This document shows, one piece after another, positions 9,956-63,504 of a stretch of 64,000 nt of DNA. A program made the translations under genes and the position numbers. The DNA is from Mytilus trossulus (taxonomy: Eukaryota), in contig NC_086376.1 in the NCBI RefSeq assembly GCF_036588685.1, positions 83,329,014 through 83,393,013 of the forward strand. Direction: 5' to 3'. The first letter of the stretch is position 1, and each line of letters begins with the position of its first letter. A model generated the notes under the pieces. The model was not told where the DNA came from. It saw only the letters and a program-made list of their open reading frames with translations, and did no database searches.

Positions 9956-10284
9956 CTATAAAAGAATCATGCAATCAGTTATTAACAAATGCAAACAAGT
10001 ACAGTTTATATTCAGTTGGGATAGACATTTATAAAAGGAGGCCCAGTGAGTCTGCAGTGTAAAGACGAGCATGTTCTAAATAAGAAAAAAATATCTTCAA
10101 GTAGCTTCTTTCCAAGTTATATAAAATTTCATGGAGGTTATTCATGTTTTAAAAATGTATGAATTTTGAGACTGTTAAAAATGTTAACTGCCAAAAAAAA
10201 CCAAGTCATTTATCAGTAAAAGTATTTAAAAATATTTTCTTTACAAAATTTGCTTCAATTAGTTTTTGTTAATTATAAACTTAC

Positions 10285-10947: not shown

Positions 10948-13559
10948 AACCAGATGCTCCGCAGGGCGTAGCTTTATACAACCGCAGAGGTTGAACCCTG
11001 AACGGTTGGGGCAAGTATGGACATAACATTCAAGCTGGATTCAGCTCTAAATTTGGATTGTGATTAAATAGTTGACACAGCATAGGTTTCTGACACAGAA
11101 TGAATGTGTTCTAATGAAATTAAATTTTTTGTTTTCTCTTAGAGCAATTCACTATGCTGTTGAATATTATTCCTCTCAAAAAAATGTTTGAAGAAATTTT
11201 CTTTTTATTTATGAAATTTCAAATGAGAAAATTGAACCCATTTTTTTTAATCACATCCCCCTTTCCCTTATTCCAAAACTAATCTCAATTAAAATTTCTA
11301 ATGGAGTTTGCAACAATTACTACTCATTTAAATACATCATAAAATATTAAGATGTAAAAAAACTGCTTTTTTATCAGTTGGTAGTAAAAAGTGAATATAC
11401 ATTGTATATTGTATATATAACAAAGATTTAAGTTGATTCTGGACAAAGAAAGATAACTCCAAATAAAAAAAAATCTTACAATTAGATATTTCTTGCTTAC
11501 TATTCTGGACAAAGAAAGATAACTCTAATTAAAAACAAAATTGCTATTTCACAATATTTTGCAATAAGATATTTCTTGCCATTGCGCAATACTGTGCAAT
11601 TGAAAAGACTTGCTATTGCACAAAACTTAATATAATTATTTTAGATCCTGATTTGGACCAACTTGAAAACTGGGTCCATAATCAACCAGATGCTCCGCAG
11701 GGCGTAGCTTTATACGACCGCAGAGGTTGAACCCTGAACGGTTGGGGCAAGTATGGACACAACATTCAAGCTGGATTCCACTCTAAATTTGGATTGTGAT
11801 TAAATAGTTGACACAGCATAGGTTTCTGACACAGAATGAATGTATTCAAATGAACTTAAAATTTTTTGTTTTCTCTTAGAGCAATTCACTATGCTGTTGA
11901 ATATTAATCCTCTCAAAAAAATGTTTGAAGAAATTTTCTTTTTATTTATGAAATTTCAAATGAGAAAAATTGAACCCAATTTTTTATTCACATCCCCCTT
12001 TCCCTTATTCCAAAACTAATTTCAATTAAAATATTCTAATGGAGTTTGCAACAATTACTACTCATTTAAATACACCATAAAATATTAAGATGTAAAAAAA
12101 CTGCTTGTTATCACTGAATGGTAAAGATTATTTAAATTTACCAGTTGGTAGTAAAAAGTGAATATACATTGTATATTGTATATAACAAAGATTTAAGTTG
12201 ATTCTGGACAAAGAACGATAACTCCAATTAAAAAAAATTCTTGCAGATATTTCTTGCTTACTATACTGGACAAAGAAAGATAACTCTTAATTAAAAAAAA
12301 ATTTGCTATTTCACAATATTGTGAAATTAGATATTTCTTGCCATTGCACAATACTGTGCAATTGAAAAGACTTGCTATTGCACAATACTTAATATAATAA
12401 TTTTAGATCCTGATTTGGACCAACTTGAAAACTGGGCCCATAATCAAAAATCTAAGTACATGTTTAGATTCAGCATATCAAAGAGGCCCAAGAATTTAAT
12501 TTTTGTTAAAATCAAACTTAGTTTAATTTTGGACCCTTTGCACTTTAATTTAGACCAATTTTAAAACTGGGCCAAAAATTAAGAATCTACATACACAGTT
12601 AGATTTGGCATATCAAAGAACCCCAATTATTCAATTTTTGATGAAATCAAACAATGTTTAATTTTGGACCTCGATTTGGGCCAACTTGAAAACTGGGCCA
12701 ATAATCAAAAATCTAAGTACATTTTTAGATTCAGCATATCAAAGAACCCCAAGGTTTCAATTTTTGTTAAAATCAAACTAAGTTTAATTTTGGACCCTTT
12801 GGACCTTAATGTAGACCAATTTGAAAACGGGACCAAAAATTAAGAATATACATACACAGTTAGATTCTGCATATTAAAGAACCCCAATTATTCAATTTTG
12901 ATGAAATCAAGCAAAGTTTAATTTTGGACCCTTTGGGCCCCTTTTTCCTTAACTGTTGGGACCAAAACTCCCAAAATCAATACCAACCTTCCTTTTATAG
13001 TCATAAACCTTATGTTTAAATTTCATAGATTTCTATTTACTTATACTAACGCTATGGTGCGAAAACCAAGAAAAATGCTTATTTGGGTCCCTTTTTGGCC
13101 CCTTATTCCTAAACTGTTGGGACCGAAACTCCCAAAATCAATACCAACCTTCCTTTTGTGGTCATAAACATTGTGTTTAAATTTCATTGATTTCTATTCA
13201 CTTTAACTAAAGTTATTGTGCGAAAACCAAAAATAATGCTTATTTGGGCCCTTTTTTGGCCCCTAATTCCTAAACTGTTGAAACCAAAACTCCCAAAATC
13301 AATCCCAACCTTTCTTTTGTGGTCATAAACCTTGTGTCAAAATTTCATAGATTTCTATTAACTTAAACTAAAGTTATAGTGCGAAAACCAAGAAAATGCT
13401 TATTTGGGCCCTTTTTGGCCCCTAATTCCTAAAATGTTGGGACCAAAACTCCCAAAATCAATACCAGCCTTCCTTTTATGGTCATAAACCTTGTGTTAAA
13501 ATTTCATAGATTTCTATTCACTTTTACTAAAGTTAGAGTGCGAATACTAAAAGTATTCG

Positions 13560-13603
<44 letters not shown>

Positions 13604-14851
13604 CAACGTGATAGCAATATACGACGAAAATTTTTTCAAAATTTGCGGTCGTATAAAAATCTAAGTACATGTTTGGATTCAGCATATCAAAGAACCCCAA
13701 ATTATCAATTTTTGTTAAAATCAAACTAAGTTTAATTTTGGACCCTTTGGACTTTAATGTAGACCAATTTGAAAACAAGACCAAAAATGAGGAATCTACA
13801 TACACAGTTAGATTTGGCATATCAAAGAACCCCATTTATTCAATTTTTGATGAAATCAAACAAAGTTTAATTTTGGACCCCGATTTGGATCAACTTGAAA
13901 ACTGGGCCGATAATCAAGAATCTAAGTACATTTTTAGATTCAGCATATCAAAGAACCCAACCGATTAATTTTTTGTCAAAATCAAACGAAGTTTAATTTT
14001 GGACCCTTTGGACCTTAATGTAGACCAATTTGAAAACGGGACCAAAAGTTAAAAATCTACATACACAGTTAGATTCGGCATATCAAAGAACCCCATTTAT
14101 TCAATTTTGATGAAATCAAACAAAGTTTAATTTTGGACCTTTTGGGCCCCTTATTCCTTAACTGTTGGGATTAAAACTCCCAAAATCATTACCAACCTTC
14201 CTTTTATGGTCTTAACCTTGTGTTTCAATTTCAGAGATTTCTATTTACTTATACTAAAGTTATGGTGCGAAAACCAAGAAAATGTTTATTTGGGTCCCTT
14301 TTTGGCCCCTAATTCCTAAACTGTTCGGACCTAAACTCCCAAAATCAATACCAACCTTCCTTTTGTGGTCATAAACATTGTGTTCAAATTTCATTATTTT
14401 CTATTTACTGAAACTAAAGTTATTGTGCGAAAACCAAGAATAATGCTTATTTGGGCCCTTTTTTGGCCCCTAATTCCTACACTGTTGAAACCAAAACTCC
14501 CAAAATCAATCCCAACCTTTCTTTTGTGGTCATAAACCTTGTGTCAAAATTTCATAGATTTCTATTAACTTAAACTAAAGTTATAGTGCGAAAACCAAGA
14601 AAATGCTTATTTGGGCCCTTTTTGGCCCCTAATTCCTAAAATGTTGGGACCAAAACTCCCAAAATCAATACCAACCTTCCTTTTGTGGTCATAAACCTTG
14701 TGATAAAATTTTATAGATTTATATTCACTTTTACTAAAGTTAAAGTGCGAAAACTAAAAGTATTCGGACGACGACGACGACGACGACGACGACGCCAAAG
14801 TGATAGCAATATACGACGAAAATTTTTTCAAAATTTGCGGTCGTATAAAAA
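10948..14851 (+). mobile_element. Composite non-autonomous element, interpreted as Helitron/Helentron (HINE)-like. Its 5' module of about 740 bp occurs twice in tandem. The module is followed by an array of a 120-bp 'A' sub-repeat, an array of a 125-bp 'B' sub-repeat, a (GACGAC)n microsatellite and a hairpin tail. The whole 3' block (A sub-repeats, B sub-repeats, microsatellite and tail) is duplicated.
   Basis: The 5' start aaccagatgctccgcagggcgtagctttatacgaccgcag is conserved in three copies. The 3' tail ...(gacgac)n gccaacgtgatagcaatatacgacgaaaattttttcaaaatttgcggtcgtataaaaa contains an imperfect hairpin (atacgacg...cgtcgtat). The subterminal inverted 13-mer is TTTATACGACCGC. Confidence 0.5.
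13561..13603 (+). repeat. (GACGAC)n microsatellite inside the composite element.
   Basis: About 14 perfect GAC units. The same microsatellite recurs at 14767-14795 and 36594-36615. It also produces the poly-Arg and poly-Val artefact ORFs in the ORF track. Confidence 0.9.
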
Positions 14852-58200: not shown

Positions 58201-60949
58201 ATATTAATTTAAAATTTGTTCTGCAAATACATAGAAGTCAAACAGACAATAATAAAGAATTTGTAATGCTCGGAAACAAAGGAACAGCATAGATCAATGC
58301 TCTTATCCTAACATGGATATCTCTACTGTATAACATTTGCTTTGTCAATACTACAAGCTTGGTCTTGTTGTTCAGCATGATGACTGGGTGTATTTGTGTC
58401 TGCCTAACACTATTTAGATGTGTCAATAAGACATTTCTCTATCCAGGTCACAACTACAAGTTAACAATAATTGGCAAAAGTTTGGCCTTTGACACAGAGC
58501 TTGGGTTTAAACTTACAGGTAAAAATAAGGCCTTCAACACAGAGAACATACATATGTCATAGAAAATATTTGGGATGTAGACTTCTTGACAATGCTTGAT
58601 GTTAGTACAATTGTAGTAAAAGAAAACAATTGAGTTGGGTTGTTGGACCATACAGACATGTGACAGAGTTGTCAAGTCACAACTGGAGATTTGGAAATTT
58701 TCAGCTGGAGTTTGGGCCTCATAACTGGAGATTTTTTATCGACATTTTAATCGACGTACGCAATGGTTTTTTGGTGTTTAAACTGCATATTTTCCTTTTT
58801 TGTTAATGATTTTATAACTCCATAGCCATTTTTACTTGATAGAAGTAGAAGATCAGGGGTTTTTAAATATTTATTTATTATACATAAAGTTCAAGATAAA
58901 GTGATCAGCCTTCATATATAGGTGGTAAAAAGTATCTCTGCTTAAGCATCATTGTTAATTTTGGTACCACTAACTGAACTGTGGTGTAGAATTGATAGAG
59001 TTGTGAGCTTTCTGGTGGGTTTGTTGTCTCCATATGTTAGGTCAAGTCATTAGAGTCACCATAGTCAGCTTTGCAACAAGTGTAGTAGACATACATATCA
59101 TGTCTCAGTTCATTAAGATATTTGTCGTGTAGGTTAAGTAATACAACTGTTTAATGTTTTTAACAGCATCACAAAAATGTTGTTGTTTATACAACTTTAA
59201 TTAATCCATTGTCAGTATTTCACTTTTAATCATCAAGGCATGTGTCTTAAACTTGCTAGTTGATCACCAGGTAATTACCAATACTCTTTTATTGCTGTAT
59301 ATACAGTCTAATCCTTAACACCTTCATAGATAACTCAAGGCTATTTACCTTTTGACATCAAAACAGTTAAAGGAAACTTCCGTTTTTCTCGGACTTTTCC
59401 GATATGAATTTCGAGTTTCTCTGACTTTTTCTCTGTCAGTACCACTTTTGTAAACAAAAATTTCTACTGATTTTTTTTCGAGGTTGACATTTTCAAAAAG
59501 CGGAAGATTTCAAATTTAAACGGGAGGGACGGAAGAGGGTCTTAAAAGCGGGAAATTTTGACTCCCGCCGGAAGAATCACATGTATGACCATAAAAGAAT
59601 ATCACATCTTCCCTTTCATTTATTGACAAAATTCCTGAAATATATTTACAGAGCTCCAGATAAGAATTCATTAATTGGGGTTTTTACCCACCATTTTCTT
59701 ATATAATTGGGTGATAAAGTTTTTTAATTGAATTATCAATTCCAATTCACCCCTCAGGTTAATATCAAATCGGGTTTTTCACCACCAAGCTCCTTAATGT
59801 ATTGGGTTTTTTCATTGACACAATATTGAATATTTAGGCAATATCAACCCCAATTTTTTCCATCTTAAATTAATATGTTTCTGTCTTTGTTTAGCTCTTT
59901 TATTTGGTTTAGGGTTATGGTTAGGGTTATTTGCTAGCTGTTTTATTTGGTTTATTCACTGAGGAGCAATTGTAGGTTTAATTTGTGTCCGGTTTCAAAC
60001 CTTTTGCCAGTTTTGTATTTTCTCACAAAAAAGGATATGTGTATTCACAGGCACTCGTCTTATACCTTTATATAATAAATTCTGAGACCAGTGCCTGATC
60101 AGTGGCTGTGTGCATGGTGTGTGTATTCATTAATTAACCGTAAAATGAATAAAAAATAGTTACTGTATATAAACTCTAATTATACTTGAATGATTTTCTT
60201 TTATTCAATTTACATAAATCTGGGTTTAGTTGTCTTTTATTAGAACTTTTGATTTCTGATGCTTTATCATTTCTTAATTGATTAAGCCTTTCACTTTTTC
60301 CAACTGAATTCGTTTTTGATGAAACACCGTGTTTATTAGCAATGTTTTCGCCCGTGCGTTCGATGGACGCTTCCTAAAGACACTGGCTGAGTCTTGTCAT
60401 CATTATAACTTTCCCTCAGTTTTCCAAAATAAGCCGAAAACATGCTTCTATTCAATATTTTAACTGGACATTCACTTTCGTTTTAATTCGATGTATGTTA
60501 TGAAAAATCCCGAGCAATGCAAAAAAAATATGACTCCATGACACACGCTAATAGGATAAACACCGAGAAGATCGAAATATTTACAAAAACACGTGTACCT
60601 ATTGAGCAACAGAAAACTCAAACAGGGACTCATTTCAGCTACTTGATGCAGGGATCTATTTTTAGAACGACAGGAAATTTCCAATTATAAATATTATAAA
60701 AATAGTTTACGCGACGACTGTAAACAGATAAGGGTAAATAACACAAACGGTAGCCAATAAAAGGGTTGAGAACTCATGGTTTTGGCATATAATTGGGTTT
60801 TCCGTTAAATTAATTGGGTTGTTGAACCCTTCAATGGACAATTGCATTGGGTTTTCTATTATTTGTATTGCGTGATCACGCAAATACGCAGCTTATCTGG
60901 AGCTCTGTATTTATATATTTTATTTACTTCTACAATCAGTGTTCCAGCT

Positions 60950-62105
60950 AGGCCGTTTTCAGAGGGCGCGGCGCCCGCCCTTTTCCGAGTGGCGCCCTGT
61001 GCCCTATTTACAGTTTCCAGGGCGCCCTGCCTTTTTAGCTCACCTGGCCCAAAGGGCCAAGTGAGCTTTTCTCATCACTTTGCGTCGGTCGTCCGTCGTC
61101 GTCGTCCTGCGTTAACTTTTACAAAAATCTTCTCCTCTGAAACTACTGGGCCAAATTAAACCAAACTTGGCCACAATGATCATTAATGTATCTAGTTTAA
61201 AATTTGTGTTTTTTTACCTGGCCAACTAACCAAGATGGCCGCCATGGCTATAAATAGAACATAGGGGTAAAATGCAGTTTTTGGCTTATAACTCAAAAAC
61301 CAAAGCATTTAGAGCAAATCTGACATGGGGTAAAATTGTTTATCAGGTGAAGATCTATCTGCCATGAAATTTTCAGATGAATCAGACAACCCGTTGTTGG
61401 GTTGCTGCCCCTGAATTGGTAATTTTAAGGAAATTTTACTGTTTTTGGTCATTATCTTGAATATTATTATAGATGGAGATAAACTGTAAACAGCAATAAT
61501 GTTCAGCAAAGTAAGATTTACAAATATGTCAACATGACCAAATTGGTCAGTTGACCCCTTTAGGAGTTATTGCCCTTTATAGTCAATTTTTAACCTTTTT
61601 TCGTAAATTTCCATATCTTTTACAAAAATCTTCTTCTCTGAAACTACTGGGCCAAATTAAACCAAAATTAGCAACAATCAACATTGATGTATCTAGTTTA
61701 AAATTTGTGTTTTTTTACCCGGCCAACCAACCAAGATGGCCACCATGGCTAAAAATAGAACATAGGGGTAAAATGCAGTTTTTGGCTTATATCTCAAAAA
61801 CCAAAGCATTTAGAGCAAATCTGACAAGGGGCAAAATTGTTTATCTGGTCAAAATCTATCTGCCCTGAAATTTTAAGATGAATGGGTCAACTGGTTGTAA
61901 GGTTGCTGCCCCTAAATTGGTAATTTTAAGGAAATTTTGCTGTTTTGGATTATTATCTTGAATATTATTATAGATAGAGATAAACTGTAAACAGCAATAA
62001 TATACAGCAATTTAAGACTAAAAAATAGGTCAAAATGACAAAAATGGTCAATTGACCCCCTATGAAATTATCGTTTTTATAATCAATTTTTAACAATTTT
62101 CATAA
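60950..62105 (-). mobile_element. Related element in minus orientation. A tail containing (GTC/GAC)n and a perfect 14-bp hairpin (agctcacctggccc aaa gggccaagtgagct) is followed by two tandem copies of a 490-bp internal repeat.
   Basis: The minus-strand tail gacgacgacgacggacgaccgacgcaaagtgatgag parallels the plus-strand tails gacgacgacgccaacgtgatagc. The 490-bp units are 61125-61610 and 61612-62105. Confidence 0.4.
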
Positions 62106-63504
62106 AATTTGTGAATTTTTACTAACATTTTCCACTGAAACTACACGGACAAGTTCATTATAGATAGAGATGATTGTAAGCAGCAAGAATGTTTAGTAAA
62201 GTAAGATGTACAAACACATCAAAATCACCTAAACACAATTTTGTCATGAACTGTCTGCTTCCTTTGTTTAATTCACATATACCAAGGTGAGCGACACAGG
62301 CTCTTTAGAGCCTCTAGTTTGAAGATCGATTGCATATTAATTTGTTTGTATTGATATGATACGCTAATTACTAAATTTTACCTGGGAAAGAGTTTATGAC
62401 TTTGTTTACGACCCCAAGCTAATCAATGGTTACAACAGGTGTCATAATCTGTTGTTATAGGTAATCCGTTTATCGGATGGGTTATTAATGATCATCAACA
62501 TTAATTCATTCAAATACAATAGGTCAGTCGGCAATTATCTTTTAAGAAATGTGCGTACAACAACATGGGCACAATTTGCAATGTTTACCGTAGTTTCATG
62601 GAGGAAACGTAATGACAGAAAGTTGGATAACCATAATAAACTTGTGGAAGACATTGTTTTACTTGTTTTCCGTAAAATAAACAGAAAATTCAGACGTATT
62701 TGTCATTGACTGCCTTCATTTTTTGATACGAAAATAACAAAACCATGCCATACATGTATTGTGATTATATTTACATCATATTTACGTACTGTTTATAATC
62801 CTCCATAGAAGAAGCACACCCGAATAAAGAAAGATAACTCAATCTGATTTTTCCCCCTAGCATTGAGTAACCCATTTACATATTCTAAAATATGTCTACA
62901 TACTTCTTGCTTAAGAATATATATGTTTAGGTATTTATTTTGAGTTATAGGAAAAGTTAAAGAGGGTCTTAGTAGCAGTGTTGGTAGGGTGCCTTGGTCA
63001 TCTTTTTCTTTATACAATTTTTCACTGTTTCTTTATATCCTAAAAGTGTGAATTTACTGAGCACAGCTGTTTTGTGCTGTATTGCCATTAAAGCACAGCA
63101 GGGGTAGAAAGGTGAAACTGGTAAAATGTGGCAGTCCATAGAAACAGTATGAAACATGTCACCTTTCAAAACATACTGCATATAAAGTTCAACTGTGCCA
63201 AGCAATGATAAAAAAAACTTGTGTGACAAGCTGCTTGACAAGTTTTTCAGCCTTAAAAGTAGAAAGATAGAGTTCTATATGGGCTAATGATGTTGTTTTT
63301 GTATAACCTGTGATTCAATGAAAAACACAAATGTTTGATTAACATCTTTTATTAAAATATGCCCTTTTCATAGTATCATATCACGCGTTAAATGCCCTTT
63401 TTCAGGATTGGCACCCTGCCCTTTTGAAAACCTAGCTGGAACACTGACAATGTATTTACATGTAACAAGTTATCCAATGAAGACTGGATTTTGTATACTT
63501 TCAG

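What the first reader, a model, noticed from the sequence alone, without database searches (positions are those of the whole stretch)
10948..14851. Composite non-autonomous element with internal satellite arrays, a (GACGAC)n microsatellite and a 3' hairpin (Helentron/HINE-like)
The same architecture occurs at 10948-14851 (with the 5' module doubled and the 3' block doubled) and at 34878-36671. It begins with a conserved 5' end (aaccagatgctccgcagggcgtagctttatacgaccgcag). About 740 bp of unique sequence follow. Then comes an array of about 4 units of a 120-bp sub-repeat, then an array of about 3-5 units of a 125-bp sub-repeat, then (GACGAC)n, then a tail ending ...tatacgacgaaaattttttcaaaatttgcggtcgtataaaaa that can fold into an imperfect hairpin. 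Inverted 13-mers (TTTATACGACCGC) lie near both ends. A tail with (GAC)n and a perfect 14-bp hairpin recurs in the opposite orientation at 60950-61125, next to 490-bp tandem repeats. An orphan tail sits at 36888-36965. A 3' hairpin together with satellite arrays carried inside a non-autonomous element is the signature reported for Helentron-derived elements (HINEs) that seed satellite DNA in bivalves. I am inferring the family, not demonstrating it.
Basis: partly seen in the sequence, partly recalled or inferred. Interest (0 to 1): 0.7.

Follow-up and report, generated by a model that had tools for sequence, protein, structure and literature searches.

The report
Nested satellite-carrying Helentron-type transposons (HINEs)
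This is an ordinary, though well preserved, bivalve "HINE": a non-coding rolling-circle-type transposon about 2 kb long that carries two short satellite arrays, with a young copy inserted inside an older copy at the flagged locus.

Summary
The repeat is real. The block 10948-14851 is not an element with doubled modules. It is a young 1,971-bp copy (Y, 11684-13654) inserted into an older 1,933-bp copy (X, 10948-11683 + 13655-14851). A third copy (C2, 34879-36671) sits inside the tandem array of a different composite element. I recovered two more full-length copies (94-99% identical) and several diverged relatives from metagenome contigs, so the family is dispersed and recently active.

Read on the minus strand, every structural hallmark of a non-autonomous Helentron (HINE, the pearl/DINE-1 type) is present:
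- a T-run, then a 5' subterminal inverted repeat;
- a nearby complementary repeat, then a (GTC)n microsatellite;
- two tandem arrays, 4 x ~160 bp and 4 x ~131-135 bp;
- a 3' subterminal inverted repeat, a short palindrome, and an 8-nt terminus.

Two filled/empty site pairs show insertion next to a T5 run with no duplication beyond an ambiguous TT.

His orientation is reversed: his "3' hairpin" is the 5' inverted-repeat pair. His repeat unit lengths are wrong. His "orphan" and "opposite-orientation" tails belong to two other composite elements; the second is a complete HINE of another family.

No autonomous partner could be sought. This is a new member of a known kind, of low to moderate interest.

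The parts
10948..11683 (-). Outer copy X, right-flank (3') part: terminus, palindrome 10956-10972, 3' subTIR 10973-10985 (one mismatch), long non-repetitive region, and the start of array 1 up to the insertion point ...CCATAATC
   Evidence: When joined to 13655-14851 it aligns without a gap to four other full-length copies.
11684..13654 (-). Inner copy Y, complete young element (1,971 bp net insert, AACCAG...GTCGTAT on the plus strand), inserted into X
   Evidence: 99.1% identical to L001 and 98.7% to C2, but only 94.5% to X. Searches give the boundaries.
11692..11708 (-). 3' palindrome of Y (minus strand GCTACGCCCTGCGGAGC; 7-position stem with one internal mismatch, 3-nt loop), 8 nt from the element end
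   Evidence: the hairpin is predicted but not exceptional (z -0.6 to -1.45); 94% of cells paired across 6 distinct variants, with no compensatory change.
11709..11721 (-). 3' subterminal inverted repeat of Y (plus TTTATACGACCGC; minus GCGGTCGTATAAA)
11722..12397 (-). Long right-flank region of Y, mostly non-repetitive, including a 35-bp x 2.7 tandem repeat at 12296-12389. Element nt ~181-715 are absent from related short variants.
   Evidence: L004, L005, L008 and L010 join the ~180-nt head almost directly to array 1.
12398..12930 (-). Tandem array 1 of Y: 4 monomers of ~131-135 bp arranged as 2 x 261-bp higher-order units
   Evidence: period 135, 77% match; period 261, 90% match
12923..13552 (-). 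Tandem array 2 of Y: 3.9 monomers of ~160 bp (320-bp higher-order unit); monomers contain GGGCCC
13560..13602 (-). Microsatellite of Y: (GAC)14 on the plus strand, (GTC)n on the minus strand. It ranges from 7 to about 17 (partly interrupted) GAC units among copies.
13618..13626 (-). IR of the left flank of Y (plus TATACGACG), complementary to the 5' subTIR and separated from it by 18 nt
   Evidence: hairpin dG -11.1 kcal/mol, z -1.75
13645..13657 (-). 5' subterminal inverted repeat of Y (plus GCGGTCGTATAAA), abutting the A5/T5 run 13655-13659 that also belongs to the interrupted target in X
13655..14851 (-). Outer copy X, left-flank (5') part: rest of array 1 (13655-14139), array 2 (14130-14754), (GAC)9 at 14767-14794, IR 14810-14818, 5' subTIR 14837-14849, A5 run
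34879..36671 (-). Copy C2 (1,793 bp with the A5 run): palindrome 34887-34903, 3' subTIR 34904-34916, array 1 35592-36128, array 2 36117-36580 (one 160-bp monomer fewer), (GAC)7 at 36593-36613, 5' subTIR 36657-36669. It is inserted in the tandem array of element H.

Best explanation
The locus holds copies of one family of non-autonomous Helentron-type transposons (HINEs; the bivalve 'pearl'/DTC84/Cg_HINE kind, equivalent to Drosophila DINE-1).

Canonical orientation is the minus strand of the window. In that orientation the element reads:
- target T5 run, then 5' subTIR ATACGACCGC;
- an 18-nt AT-rich spacer, then the IR CGTCGTATA;
- about 16 nt, then a (GTC)7-17 microsatellite;
- 3-4 x ~160-bp tandem repeats, then 4 x ~131-135-bp tandem repeats;
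- about 680 bp of mostly non-repetitive sequence;
- 3' subTIR GCGGTCGTATAAA, palindrome GCTACGCCCTGCGGAGC, terminus ATCTGGTT.

Shown here:
- The block 10948-14851 is a young copy (Y) inserted into an older copy (X) inside X's first array.
- C2 inserted into the repeat array of another composite element.
- Both insertions add exactly the element sequence next to a pre-existing T5 run, with no target duplication beyond an unresolvable TT.
- Copies exist at other loci at 94-99% identity.
- The element ends are more conserved than the interior.
- Array copy number and microsatellite length vary among copies.

Inferred, not shown:
- Mobilisation in trans by the Rep/helicase(/endonuclease) protein of an autonomous Helentron that recognises the subTIRs and the 3' palindrome. 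This would be rolling-circle-type transposition, carrying the internal satellite arrays to new sites as passive cargo.
- Expansion and contraction of the arrays by unequal exchange or slippage.
For: - Nested insertion: X joined across Y (10948-11683 + 13655-14851) aligns collinearly and without a gap at the junction (GGGTCCATAATCAAAAATCTAAG) to Y, C2, L001 and L002. Both halves of X carry the variants of the L002 subfamily (X-L002 96.6%). Y belongs with L001 and C2 (99.1% and 98.7%). X-Y identity is only 94.5%.
- Second filled/empty pair: removing 34879-36666 restores the host ~190-bp unit in register with three paralogous units (...TTTTC-AAAAA-CTTTAACC).
- HINE hallmarks: subTIR pair, 6 hits against 0.28 expected. 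5' subTIR/IR hairpin. Microsatellite and two arrays. Palindrome 8 nt from the end. These match the definitions in PMC4067079 and PMC7492417, including the rare two-array elements.
- Dispersal: two further full-length copies in JGI metagenome contigs with unrelated flanks. Related copies on 7 contigs of ENA assembly ERZ6864376.
- Junctions: all 11 left-flank ends read GTCGTAT+AAAAA, and 10 of 11 are followed by a non-A base. All 9 right-flank ends have at least 2 A before CCAG. Flanks are otherwise unrelated.
- Conservation: the two ~60-nt ends have 1/60 and 1/56 variable columns, against 5.7-9.3% in the interior.
- No coding or RNA signal: the longest ORF is 100 aa. Its only database relatives are ORFs from other copies. 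There is no Rfam or tRNA match.
- A second, complete HINE family in the window (61032-62318) has the same layout and a near-identical 3' terminus, TCTAGTT against TCTGGTT.
Against: - No autonomous Helentron (Rep/helicase ORF) with matching termini was found or could be searched for. The window has none and the host genome is not available in the tools. The Cg_HINE authors also failed to link their elements to an autonomous partner.
- The 3' palindrome is weak: a 7-position stem with one mismatch, fold z -0.6 to -1.45, and no compensatory changes.
- The junction data cannot separate 'no TSD, insertion in a T-run' from 'a 2-bp TT/AA target-site duplication'.
- The right flank (~740 bp) is much longer than the ~60 bp reported for Cg_HINE.
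Confidence: 0.85

Rival explanations
1. A cut-and-paste MITE with a 2-bp AA/TT target-site duplication, mobilised by a DDE transposase. This is the original interpretation of pearl/DTC84 elements.
For: Both filled/empty pairs show a net gain of the element plus two A (plus strand). That is arithmetically compatible with an AA duplication. At least 2 A precede CCAG at all 9 right-flank ends. PMC3879986 proposed an AA TSD for this architecture.
Against: The inverted repeats are asymmetric: one is terminal and the other lies 25 nt inside, followed by a palindrome. That is the Helentron layout, not a TIR layout. An invariant A5 run rather than A2 abuts one end in 10 of 11 cases. The literature has re-classified this architecture as HINE because autonomous Helentrons share these ends in mites, mosquitoes and Drosophila (PMC4067079).
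Confidence: 0.07
2. A local segmental or tandem duplication: one element whose 5' module and 3' block were each doubled in place.
For: One search shows 10948-11685 ~ 11684-12447 (91%) and 12446-13659 ~ 13655-14851 (93%).
Against: The 'duplicates' are not each other's closest relatives. Y is 99.1% identical to a copy on another contig (L001). Both parts of X carry the diagnostic variants of a different subfamily (L002). The breakpoints coincide exactly with complete element termini, and excising Y restores an intact X.
Confidence: 0.02
3. A SINE or other retroposed element ending in a short A-tail on the plus strand.
For: The plus-strand copy ends in AAAAA.
Against: The A5 run has fixed length and pre-exists in both empty sites. 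There are no flanking target-site duplications of 5-15 bp. There is no tRNA, 5S or 7SL-type head or any Rfam hit. The element is ~2 kb long with subterminal inverted repeats.
Confidence: 0.01
4. A canonical Helitron-type non-autonomous element rather than a Helentron.
For: It belongs to the same superfamily and has no clear TSD. Repbase files the oyster HINEs under 'Helitron-N' names.
Against: In neither orientation does it begin with TC, end with CTRR, or sit between A and T. It has subterminal inverted repeats, which canonical Helitrons lack (definitions).
Confidence: 0.04

Closest known systems
[quoted passage not shown] 2020, PMC7492417)
   Same: Left flank with a 5' subTIR (11-12 nt), a nearby complementary IR and a GTC-based microsatellite. 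Central satellite-like repeats of ~160 bp, exceptionally two consecutive arrays. Right flank with a 3' subTIR followed by a palindrome. Insertion in T-rich/TT sites without TSD. Frequent insertion into other repeats. Modular reuse of flanks with different arrays, seen here in L006.
   Different: The microsatellite unit is a trinucleotide (GTC) rather than GTCY-type tetranucleotides. The IR spacer is 18 nt against 1-12 nt. The right flank is ~740 bp against ~60 bp. No sequence comparison was possible: the substructure table is illegible in the held copy and Repbase is not available.
pearl family (C. virginica CvA/CvE/CvG), DTC84 of Donax trunculus, MgE of Mytilus galloprovincialis
   Same: Layout L flank - core repeats (up to ~5-6 x ~160 bp) - microsatellite - R flank. 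The inverted motif is subterminal in L and terminal in R, with AA at the ends. This is exactly the plus-strand reading of the present element (PMC3879986).
   Different: Those elements carry one array and short (~50 bp) flanks. MgE is reported to lack the microsatellite, whereas this family has one. One diverged relative on L006 lacks it. The original papers (Gaffney 2003, Kourtidis 2006) are not held, so identity with MgE or the Mytilus satellites could not be tested.
DINE-1 / HINE-Mo and their autonomous Helentrons (Thomas et al. 2014, PMC4067079)
   Same: 13-bp subTIRs. An IR 3-22 bp from the 5' subTIR. A microsatellite and optional central repeats. A 3' stem-loop 8-35 bp from the end. A TT target, with a string of 2-5 T at the boundaries.
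   Different: In arthropods the autonomous partner was identified (98% identical ends). Here it was not. Here the T5 run next to the 5' subTIR pre-exists in both reconstructed empty sites, so it looks target-derived rather than part of the element.

Membership tests
HINE (non-autonomous Helentron) | Pair of ~11-15-nt subterminal inverted repeats, one near each end | tested here: met
   TTTATACGACCGC / GCGGTCGTATAAA pairs in all three window copies. 6 matches against 0.28 expected. Also present in L001, L002 and diverged relatives.
HINE (non-autonomous Helentron) | Short IR complementary to the 5' subTIR a few to ~22 nt away, in the left flank | tested here: met
   CGTCGTATA lies 18 nt from ATACGACCGC. 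Hairpin dG -10.5 to -11.1 kcal/mol, z about -2.
HINE (non-autonomous Helentron) | Microsatellite in the left flank, followed by central tandem repeats | tested here: met
   (GTC)n microsatellite, about 7-17 units (partly interrupted); arrays of ~160 bp and ~131-135 bp.
HINE (non-autonomous Helentron) | Palindrome or stem-loop after the 3' subTIR, ~8-35 nt from the 3' end | tested here: met
   GCTACGCCCTGCGGAGC lies directly after the 3' subTIR and 8 nt from the end. It is weak: one mismatch, z -0.6 to -1.45. 94% of cells are paired in 6 variants, with no covariation.
HINE (non-autonomous Helentron) | Insertion into TT or T-rich sequence without target-site duplication | tested here: met
   Two filled/empty pairs and 11 + 9 junctions. 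Insertion is next to a T5 run with a net gain of the element plus TT. A 2-bp TT duplication cannot be formally excluded.
HINE (non-autonomous Helentron) | No coding capacity; multiple dispersed copies | tested here: met
   ORFs are at most 100 aa and have relatives only in other copies. Copies occur on at least 9 other contigs.
HINE (non-autonomous Helentron) | Autonomous Helentron (Rep/helicase, usually with an endonuclease) sharing the same termini in the same genome | not testable with these tools
   No such ORF occurs in the window.
Canonical Helitron | 5' TC, 3' CTRR, a hairpin ~10-12 nt from the 3' end, insertion between A and T, no terminal inverted repeats | tested here: not met
   The ends are ATACGAC.../...ATCTGGTT (minus strand) or AACCAG.../...CGTATAAAAA (plus strand). 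Inverted repeats are present.
TIR-type MITE (cut-and-paste) | Inverted repeats at both extreme termini, plus a fixed-length target-site duplication | tested here: not met
   One repeat lies 25 nt inside the end. Only an ambiguous AA/TT could be a duplication.
SINE | Pol III-type head (tRNA/5S/7SL), a variable A- or simple-repeat tail, flanking duplications of variable length | tested here: not met
   No tRNA or Rfam hit. The A5 run is fixed and pre-exists in empty sites.
Known bivalve satellites (BIV160/Cg170 family; Mytilus ApaI satellites, Mg1-Mg3) | Sequence similarity of the ~160-bp and ~131/261-bp monomers to published monomers | not testable with these tools
   No reference sequences are held. 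The Kourtidis 2006 paper is not in the library. The monomer length (~160 bp) and the GGGCCC sites are only a lead from memory.

The most novel reading that the evidence does not exclude
The T5 run that abuts the 5' subTIR may not be part of the element. It may be a required target sequence that is not duplicated.

Evidence in favour:
- The run has exactly five T at 10 of 11 independent ends.
- It already exists in both reconstructed empty sites.
- A second family in the window also follows a T5 run and ends in nearly the same 3' heptamer (TCTRGTT).
- A head-to-tail junction on L010 joins ...TCTAGTT directly to AGCTCACC... without a T5 run.

This would mean these Helentron-type elements integrate 3' of a fixed oligo-T, in the way bacterial HUH transposons (IS608 with TTAC, IS91 with its tetranucleotide) insert next to a fixed target. 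It would sharpen the long-ambiguous 'TT target or TT duplication' question.
Probability: 0.3. Interest if true: 0.45.

Novelty: new member of a known kind. Interest (0 to 1): 0.25.

Why it matters
Satellite-carrying HINEs are the accepted vehicle by which short satellite-like arrays are scattered through bivalve genomes, so the finding mainly confirms that picture in another bivalve genome.

Its practical value is threefold:
- The nested copy and the copy inside another element's array give two exact filled/empty site pairs, which define the element ends to within 2 nt.
- The family shows recent activity (copies 99% identical), copy-number change in its arrays and microsatellite, modular swapping of internal sequences, and a solo monomer elsewhere. 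These are all steps proposed for satellite seeding.
- For annotation, the block 10948-14851 should be masked as two elements rather than one. The neighbouring 'tails' belong to two other composite elements.

Tried and rejected
- Species identification. The LINE reverse-transcriptase ORF only reached the level of 'bivalve': best unnamed hits 62-63% identity, and named hits from Mytilus trossulus, Dreissena, Mercenaria, Ostrea and Pinctada. The host STAND/P-loop gene exons gave three unnamed fragments.
- The contig holding the best RT hit (L003, 22 kb) has no copy of the element.
- Look-up of the Mytilus trossulus protein found nothing on record.
- Exact look-up of an element-internal ORF found nothing. 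The homology search with such an ORF did work.
- Literature. There were no hits for 'ApaI satellite' + Mytilus. Kourtidis 2006 is not held. The M. galloprovincialis genome paper says nothing on these elements. The Cg_HINE substructure table is illegible in the held copy. So there was no sequence-level comparison with MgE, pearl, Cg_HINE or Repbase.
- Rfam and tRNA scans found nothing, so the SINE idea was rejected.
- The covariation test of the 3' palindrome showed no compensatory change and is uninformative.
- I searched for a partner of the putative subTIR of element H (GTCGAGCCTTCGAC). None was found in the window, so H's 3' boundary stays uncertain.
- 'Doubling by local duplication' was rejected on subfamily-diagnostic sites.
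Full report
**1. What is in the sequence**

The window is AT-rich (about 27-36% G+C per 2-kb window) and eukaryotic. It holds spliced exons and a LINE reverse-transcriptase ORF whose named relatives are all from bivalves: Mytilus trossulus, Dreissena, Mercenaria, Ostrea and Pinctada.

- 11684-13391 matches 34879-36583 at 96% over 1.7 kb.
- 10948-11685 matches 11684-12447 at 91%.
- 12446-13659 matches 13655-14851 at 93%.

Tandem Repeats Finder shows two internal arrays.
- The first has period 135 with a 261-bp higher-order unit, that is four monomers.
- The second has period 159-161 with a 320-bp higher-order unit. It has 3.9 monomers in two copies and 2.9 in the third.

A perfect (GAC)n run follows each array. 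The 13-mer TTTATACGACCGC occurs six times, as three inverted pairs, against 0.28 expected by chance.

**2. The 'doubled' element is a nested insertion**

I joined 10948-11683 to 13655-14851 (copy X). I aligned it with 11684-13659 (Y), 34879-36671 (C2) and two full-length copies found in metagenome contigs (L001, L002). The results come:
- X is collinear with the others over its full 1,933 bp. There is no gap at the junction (GGGTCCATAATC|AAAAATCTAAG).
- Both halves of X carry the diagnostic variants of the L002 subfamily (X-L002 96.6%).
- Y belongs with L001 and C2 (99.1% and 98.7%) and is only 94.5% identical to X.

A local duplication would make the duplicated parts each other's closest relatives, and they are not. 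So a young copy Y inserted into the first array of an older copy X.

**3. A second filled/empty pair**

C2 lies inside a tandem array of ~190-bp units belonging to another composite element, H (about 34310-34878 plus 36667-36970). Removing 34879-36666 restores that unit in register with three paralogous units, which read TTTT(C/T/-)-AAAAA-(C/T)TTTAAC.

In both pairs the net insert is AACCAG...GTCGTAT, or a rotation of it by up to 2 nt. It is placed at the edge of a pre-existing A5 run, which is T5 on the minus strand.

**4. More copies**

The DNA-pattern scan of metagenome contigs gave two complete copies with unrelated flanks.

I then used a spurious ORF that runs through array 1 as a protein query. 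It returned 37 ORF clusters. All seven contigs I fetched come from ENA assembly ERZ6864376. All carry related sequence at about 70-97% identity. They show several things:
- Short variants join the ~180-nt head almost directly to array 1 (L004, L005, L008, L010).
- One copy has the same left flank on a different internal module, and another lacks the microsatellite and IR (L006).
- A solo array-1 monomer is 96% identical to the family and sits in unrelated DNA (L009).

Across 11 left-flank ends the sequence is always GTCGTAT+AAAAA, followed by a non-A base in 10 of them. Across 9 right-flank ends at least two A precede CCAG. Otherwise the flanks are unrelated.

Among the five full-length copies the terminal ~60 nt have 1/60 and 1/56 variable columns. 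The interior has 5.7-9.3%.

**5. Classification**

The defining descriptions come from Thomas et al. 2014 (PMC4067079) and Vojvoda Zeljko et al. 2020 (PMC7492417). They list these features:
- a 5' subTIR with a nearby complementary IR and a microsatellite in the left flank;
- central tandem repeats, exceptionally two arrays;
- a 3' subTIR followed by a palindrome 8-35 nt from the end;
- a T-rich/TT target and no target-site duplication.

Read on the minus strand, the element has all of these in the right order:
- T5, then ATACGACCGC;
- 18 nt, then CGTCGTATA;
- 16 nt, then (GTC)n;
- the 160-bp array, then the 131/135-bp array;
- about 680 bp of mostly non-repetitive sequence;
- GCGGTCGTATAAA, then GCTACGCCCTGCGGAGC, then ATCTGGTT.

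His '3' hairpin' is the 5' subTIR/IR pair (dG about -11 kcal/mol, z about -2). The real 3' palindrome sits in his 'conserved 5' end'. His orientation is that of the older pearl/DTC84 descriptions, which also noted 'AA' ends (PMC3879986).

The 3' palindrome is present but weak. It has one internal mismatch and a fold z of -0.6 to -1.45. It stays 94% paired in six sequence variants through G-T wobbles, with no compensatory change.

Other classifications fail:
- Canonical Helitron features (5' TC, 3' CTRR, A^T target) are absent.
- SINE features are absent. There is no tRNA or Rfam hit, and the A5 run is fixed and target-derived.
- A TIR-type MITE is disfavoured because the inverted repeats are asymmetric. 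A 2-bp TT/AA duplication cannot be formally excluded.

**6. Mechanism**

Shown:
- repeated, precise insertion of the whole unit next to oligo-T, including into other repeats;
- recent activity;
- conserved ends;
- variable array and microsatellite copy number (C2 lacks one 160-bp monomer; the microsatellite varies from 7 to about 17 GAC units);
- modular exchange of internal sequence.

Inferred from what is known of the superfamily:
- mobilisation in trans by a Helentron Rep/helicase through a rolling-circle-type reaction, with the arrays as passive cargo;
- dispersal of satellite monomers by this route.

No autonomous partner could be sought. None lies in the window. The oyster study also failed to link its HINEs to one.

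**7. The other 'tails'**

The tail at 36888-36965 is the left-flank end of element H, not an orphan.

The 'opposite-orientation' tail is the left flank of a complete third family, T3, at 61032-62318 on the plus strand. This is the canonical orientation. It reads:
- T5, then AGCTCACCTGGCCC;
- AAA, then GGGCCAAGTGAGCT (13 of 14 positions paired, z -4.1 to -4.8);
- (GTC)n, then 501-bp repeats x ~2.3;
- CCAAGGTGAGCG, then the palindrome GGCTCTTTAGAGCC, then TCTAGTT.

Its 3' heptamer nearly equals that of the main family (TCTGGTT). Its left flank shares 82% identity over 51 nt with the main family's.

T3 lies inside a 2.5-kb unit bounded by perfect 17-nt inverted repeats (60936-60952 and 63431-63447). 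That unit is flanked by a 5-bp direct repeat, ACAAT, so it is probably a cut-and-paste element.

On contig L010 a T3-like 3' end (...TTCTAGTT) abuts a T3-like 5' end (AGCTCACC...) head to tail. This fits rolling-circle elements. It is weak evidence, because it rests on a single short metagenome contig.

**8. Verdict**

- The element is a new member of a well-described kind.
- Interest is low to moderate.
- The only point that might interest a specialist is the invariant, pre-existing T5 next to the 5' subTIR. It hints at a fixed oligo-T target rather than element-borne T's.

Noticed in passing
window 61032-62318 (+): A complete HINE of a different family (T3): T5 run, subTIR AGCTCACCTGGCCC, IR GGGCCAAGTGAGCT, degenerate (GTC)n, 501-bp tandem repeats x ~2.3, 3' subTIR CCAAGGTGAGCG, palindrome GGCTCTTTAGAGCC, terminus TCTAGTT. 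Its left flank is 82% identical over 51 nt to that of the main family.
   Followed up: partly
window 60936-63447: A 2.5-kb unit bounded by perfect 17-nt inverted repeats (TCAGTGTTCCAGCTAGG / CCTAGCTGGAACACTGA; imperfect similarity extends further inward). If the repeat is taken to start at CAGTG, it is flanked by a 5-bp direct repeat ACAAT. It is probably a non-autonomous cut-and-paste transposon, and T3 is inserted in it.
   Followed up: partly
window ~34310-34878 and 36667-36970 (-): Element H, host of copy C2: ~190-bp tandem units, a (GCC)3/(GAC)3 microsatellite, a tail with TCGAC/GTCGA hairpins, and an A5 end. A perfect palindrome GGGTTCcgcaGAACCC lies near its other end. No convincing subTIR partner was found, so its boundaries are uncertain. 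A 71%-similar unit fragment lies at 10099-10221.
   Followed up: partly
window 33340-37182 (-): Exons of a STAND/P-loop NTPase gene (GKPGTGKS motif; one database relative carries PF20703) lie at about 37182-36980, 34000-33830 and 33490-33340. H and C2 sit in the intron between the first two of these exons. The end of H lies about 12 bp from the GTAAGA splice donor.
   Followed up: partly
window 39893-42322 (+): A non-LTR retrotransposon fragment: two adjacent ORFs (370 aa and 435 aa) with a reverse-transcriptase domain. Best database identity is 62-63% and all named relatives are from bivalves.
   Followed up: partly
window 26675-27145: A 122-bp tandem repeat, 3.9 copies at 99% identity, with degenerate partial units just upstream (about 26530-26660). 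No HINE-type flanks or microsatellite were seen by eye.
   Followed up: no
L010 2700-2735 (minus strand): Head-to-tail junction of two T3-like elements: ...GGCTCTTGAGCATTTCTAGTT directly followed by AGCTCACCTGGCCC..., without an intervening T5 run. The same contig holds three main-family-related right-flank heads.
   Followed up: partly
L009 655-775: A solo ~120-bp array-1 monomer (96% identical) embedded in unrelated sequence, with no other part of the element nearby.
   Followed up: no
L006 1-182 and 390-1081: The same left-flank end (IR + subTIR + A5) is attached to a different internal sequence. A second copy has array 2 joined almost directly to the terminal subTIR, with no microsatellite or IR. 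This is evidence of modular reshuffling.
   Followed up: no
L001 1-92 (plus coordinates of the locus): Beyond its A5 end, this copy's flank is internal sequence of another copy of the same family (equivalent to window ~12237-12330). The flank at its other end is unrelated. This is either an insertion into another copy followed by rearrangement, or a short-read assembly chimera.
   Followed up: no
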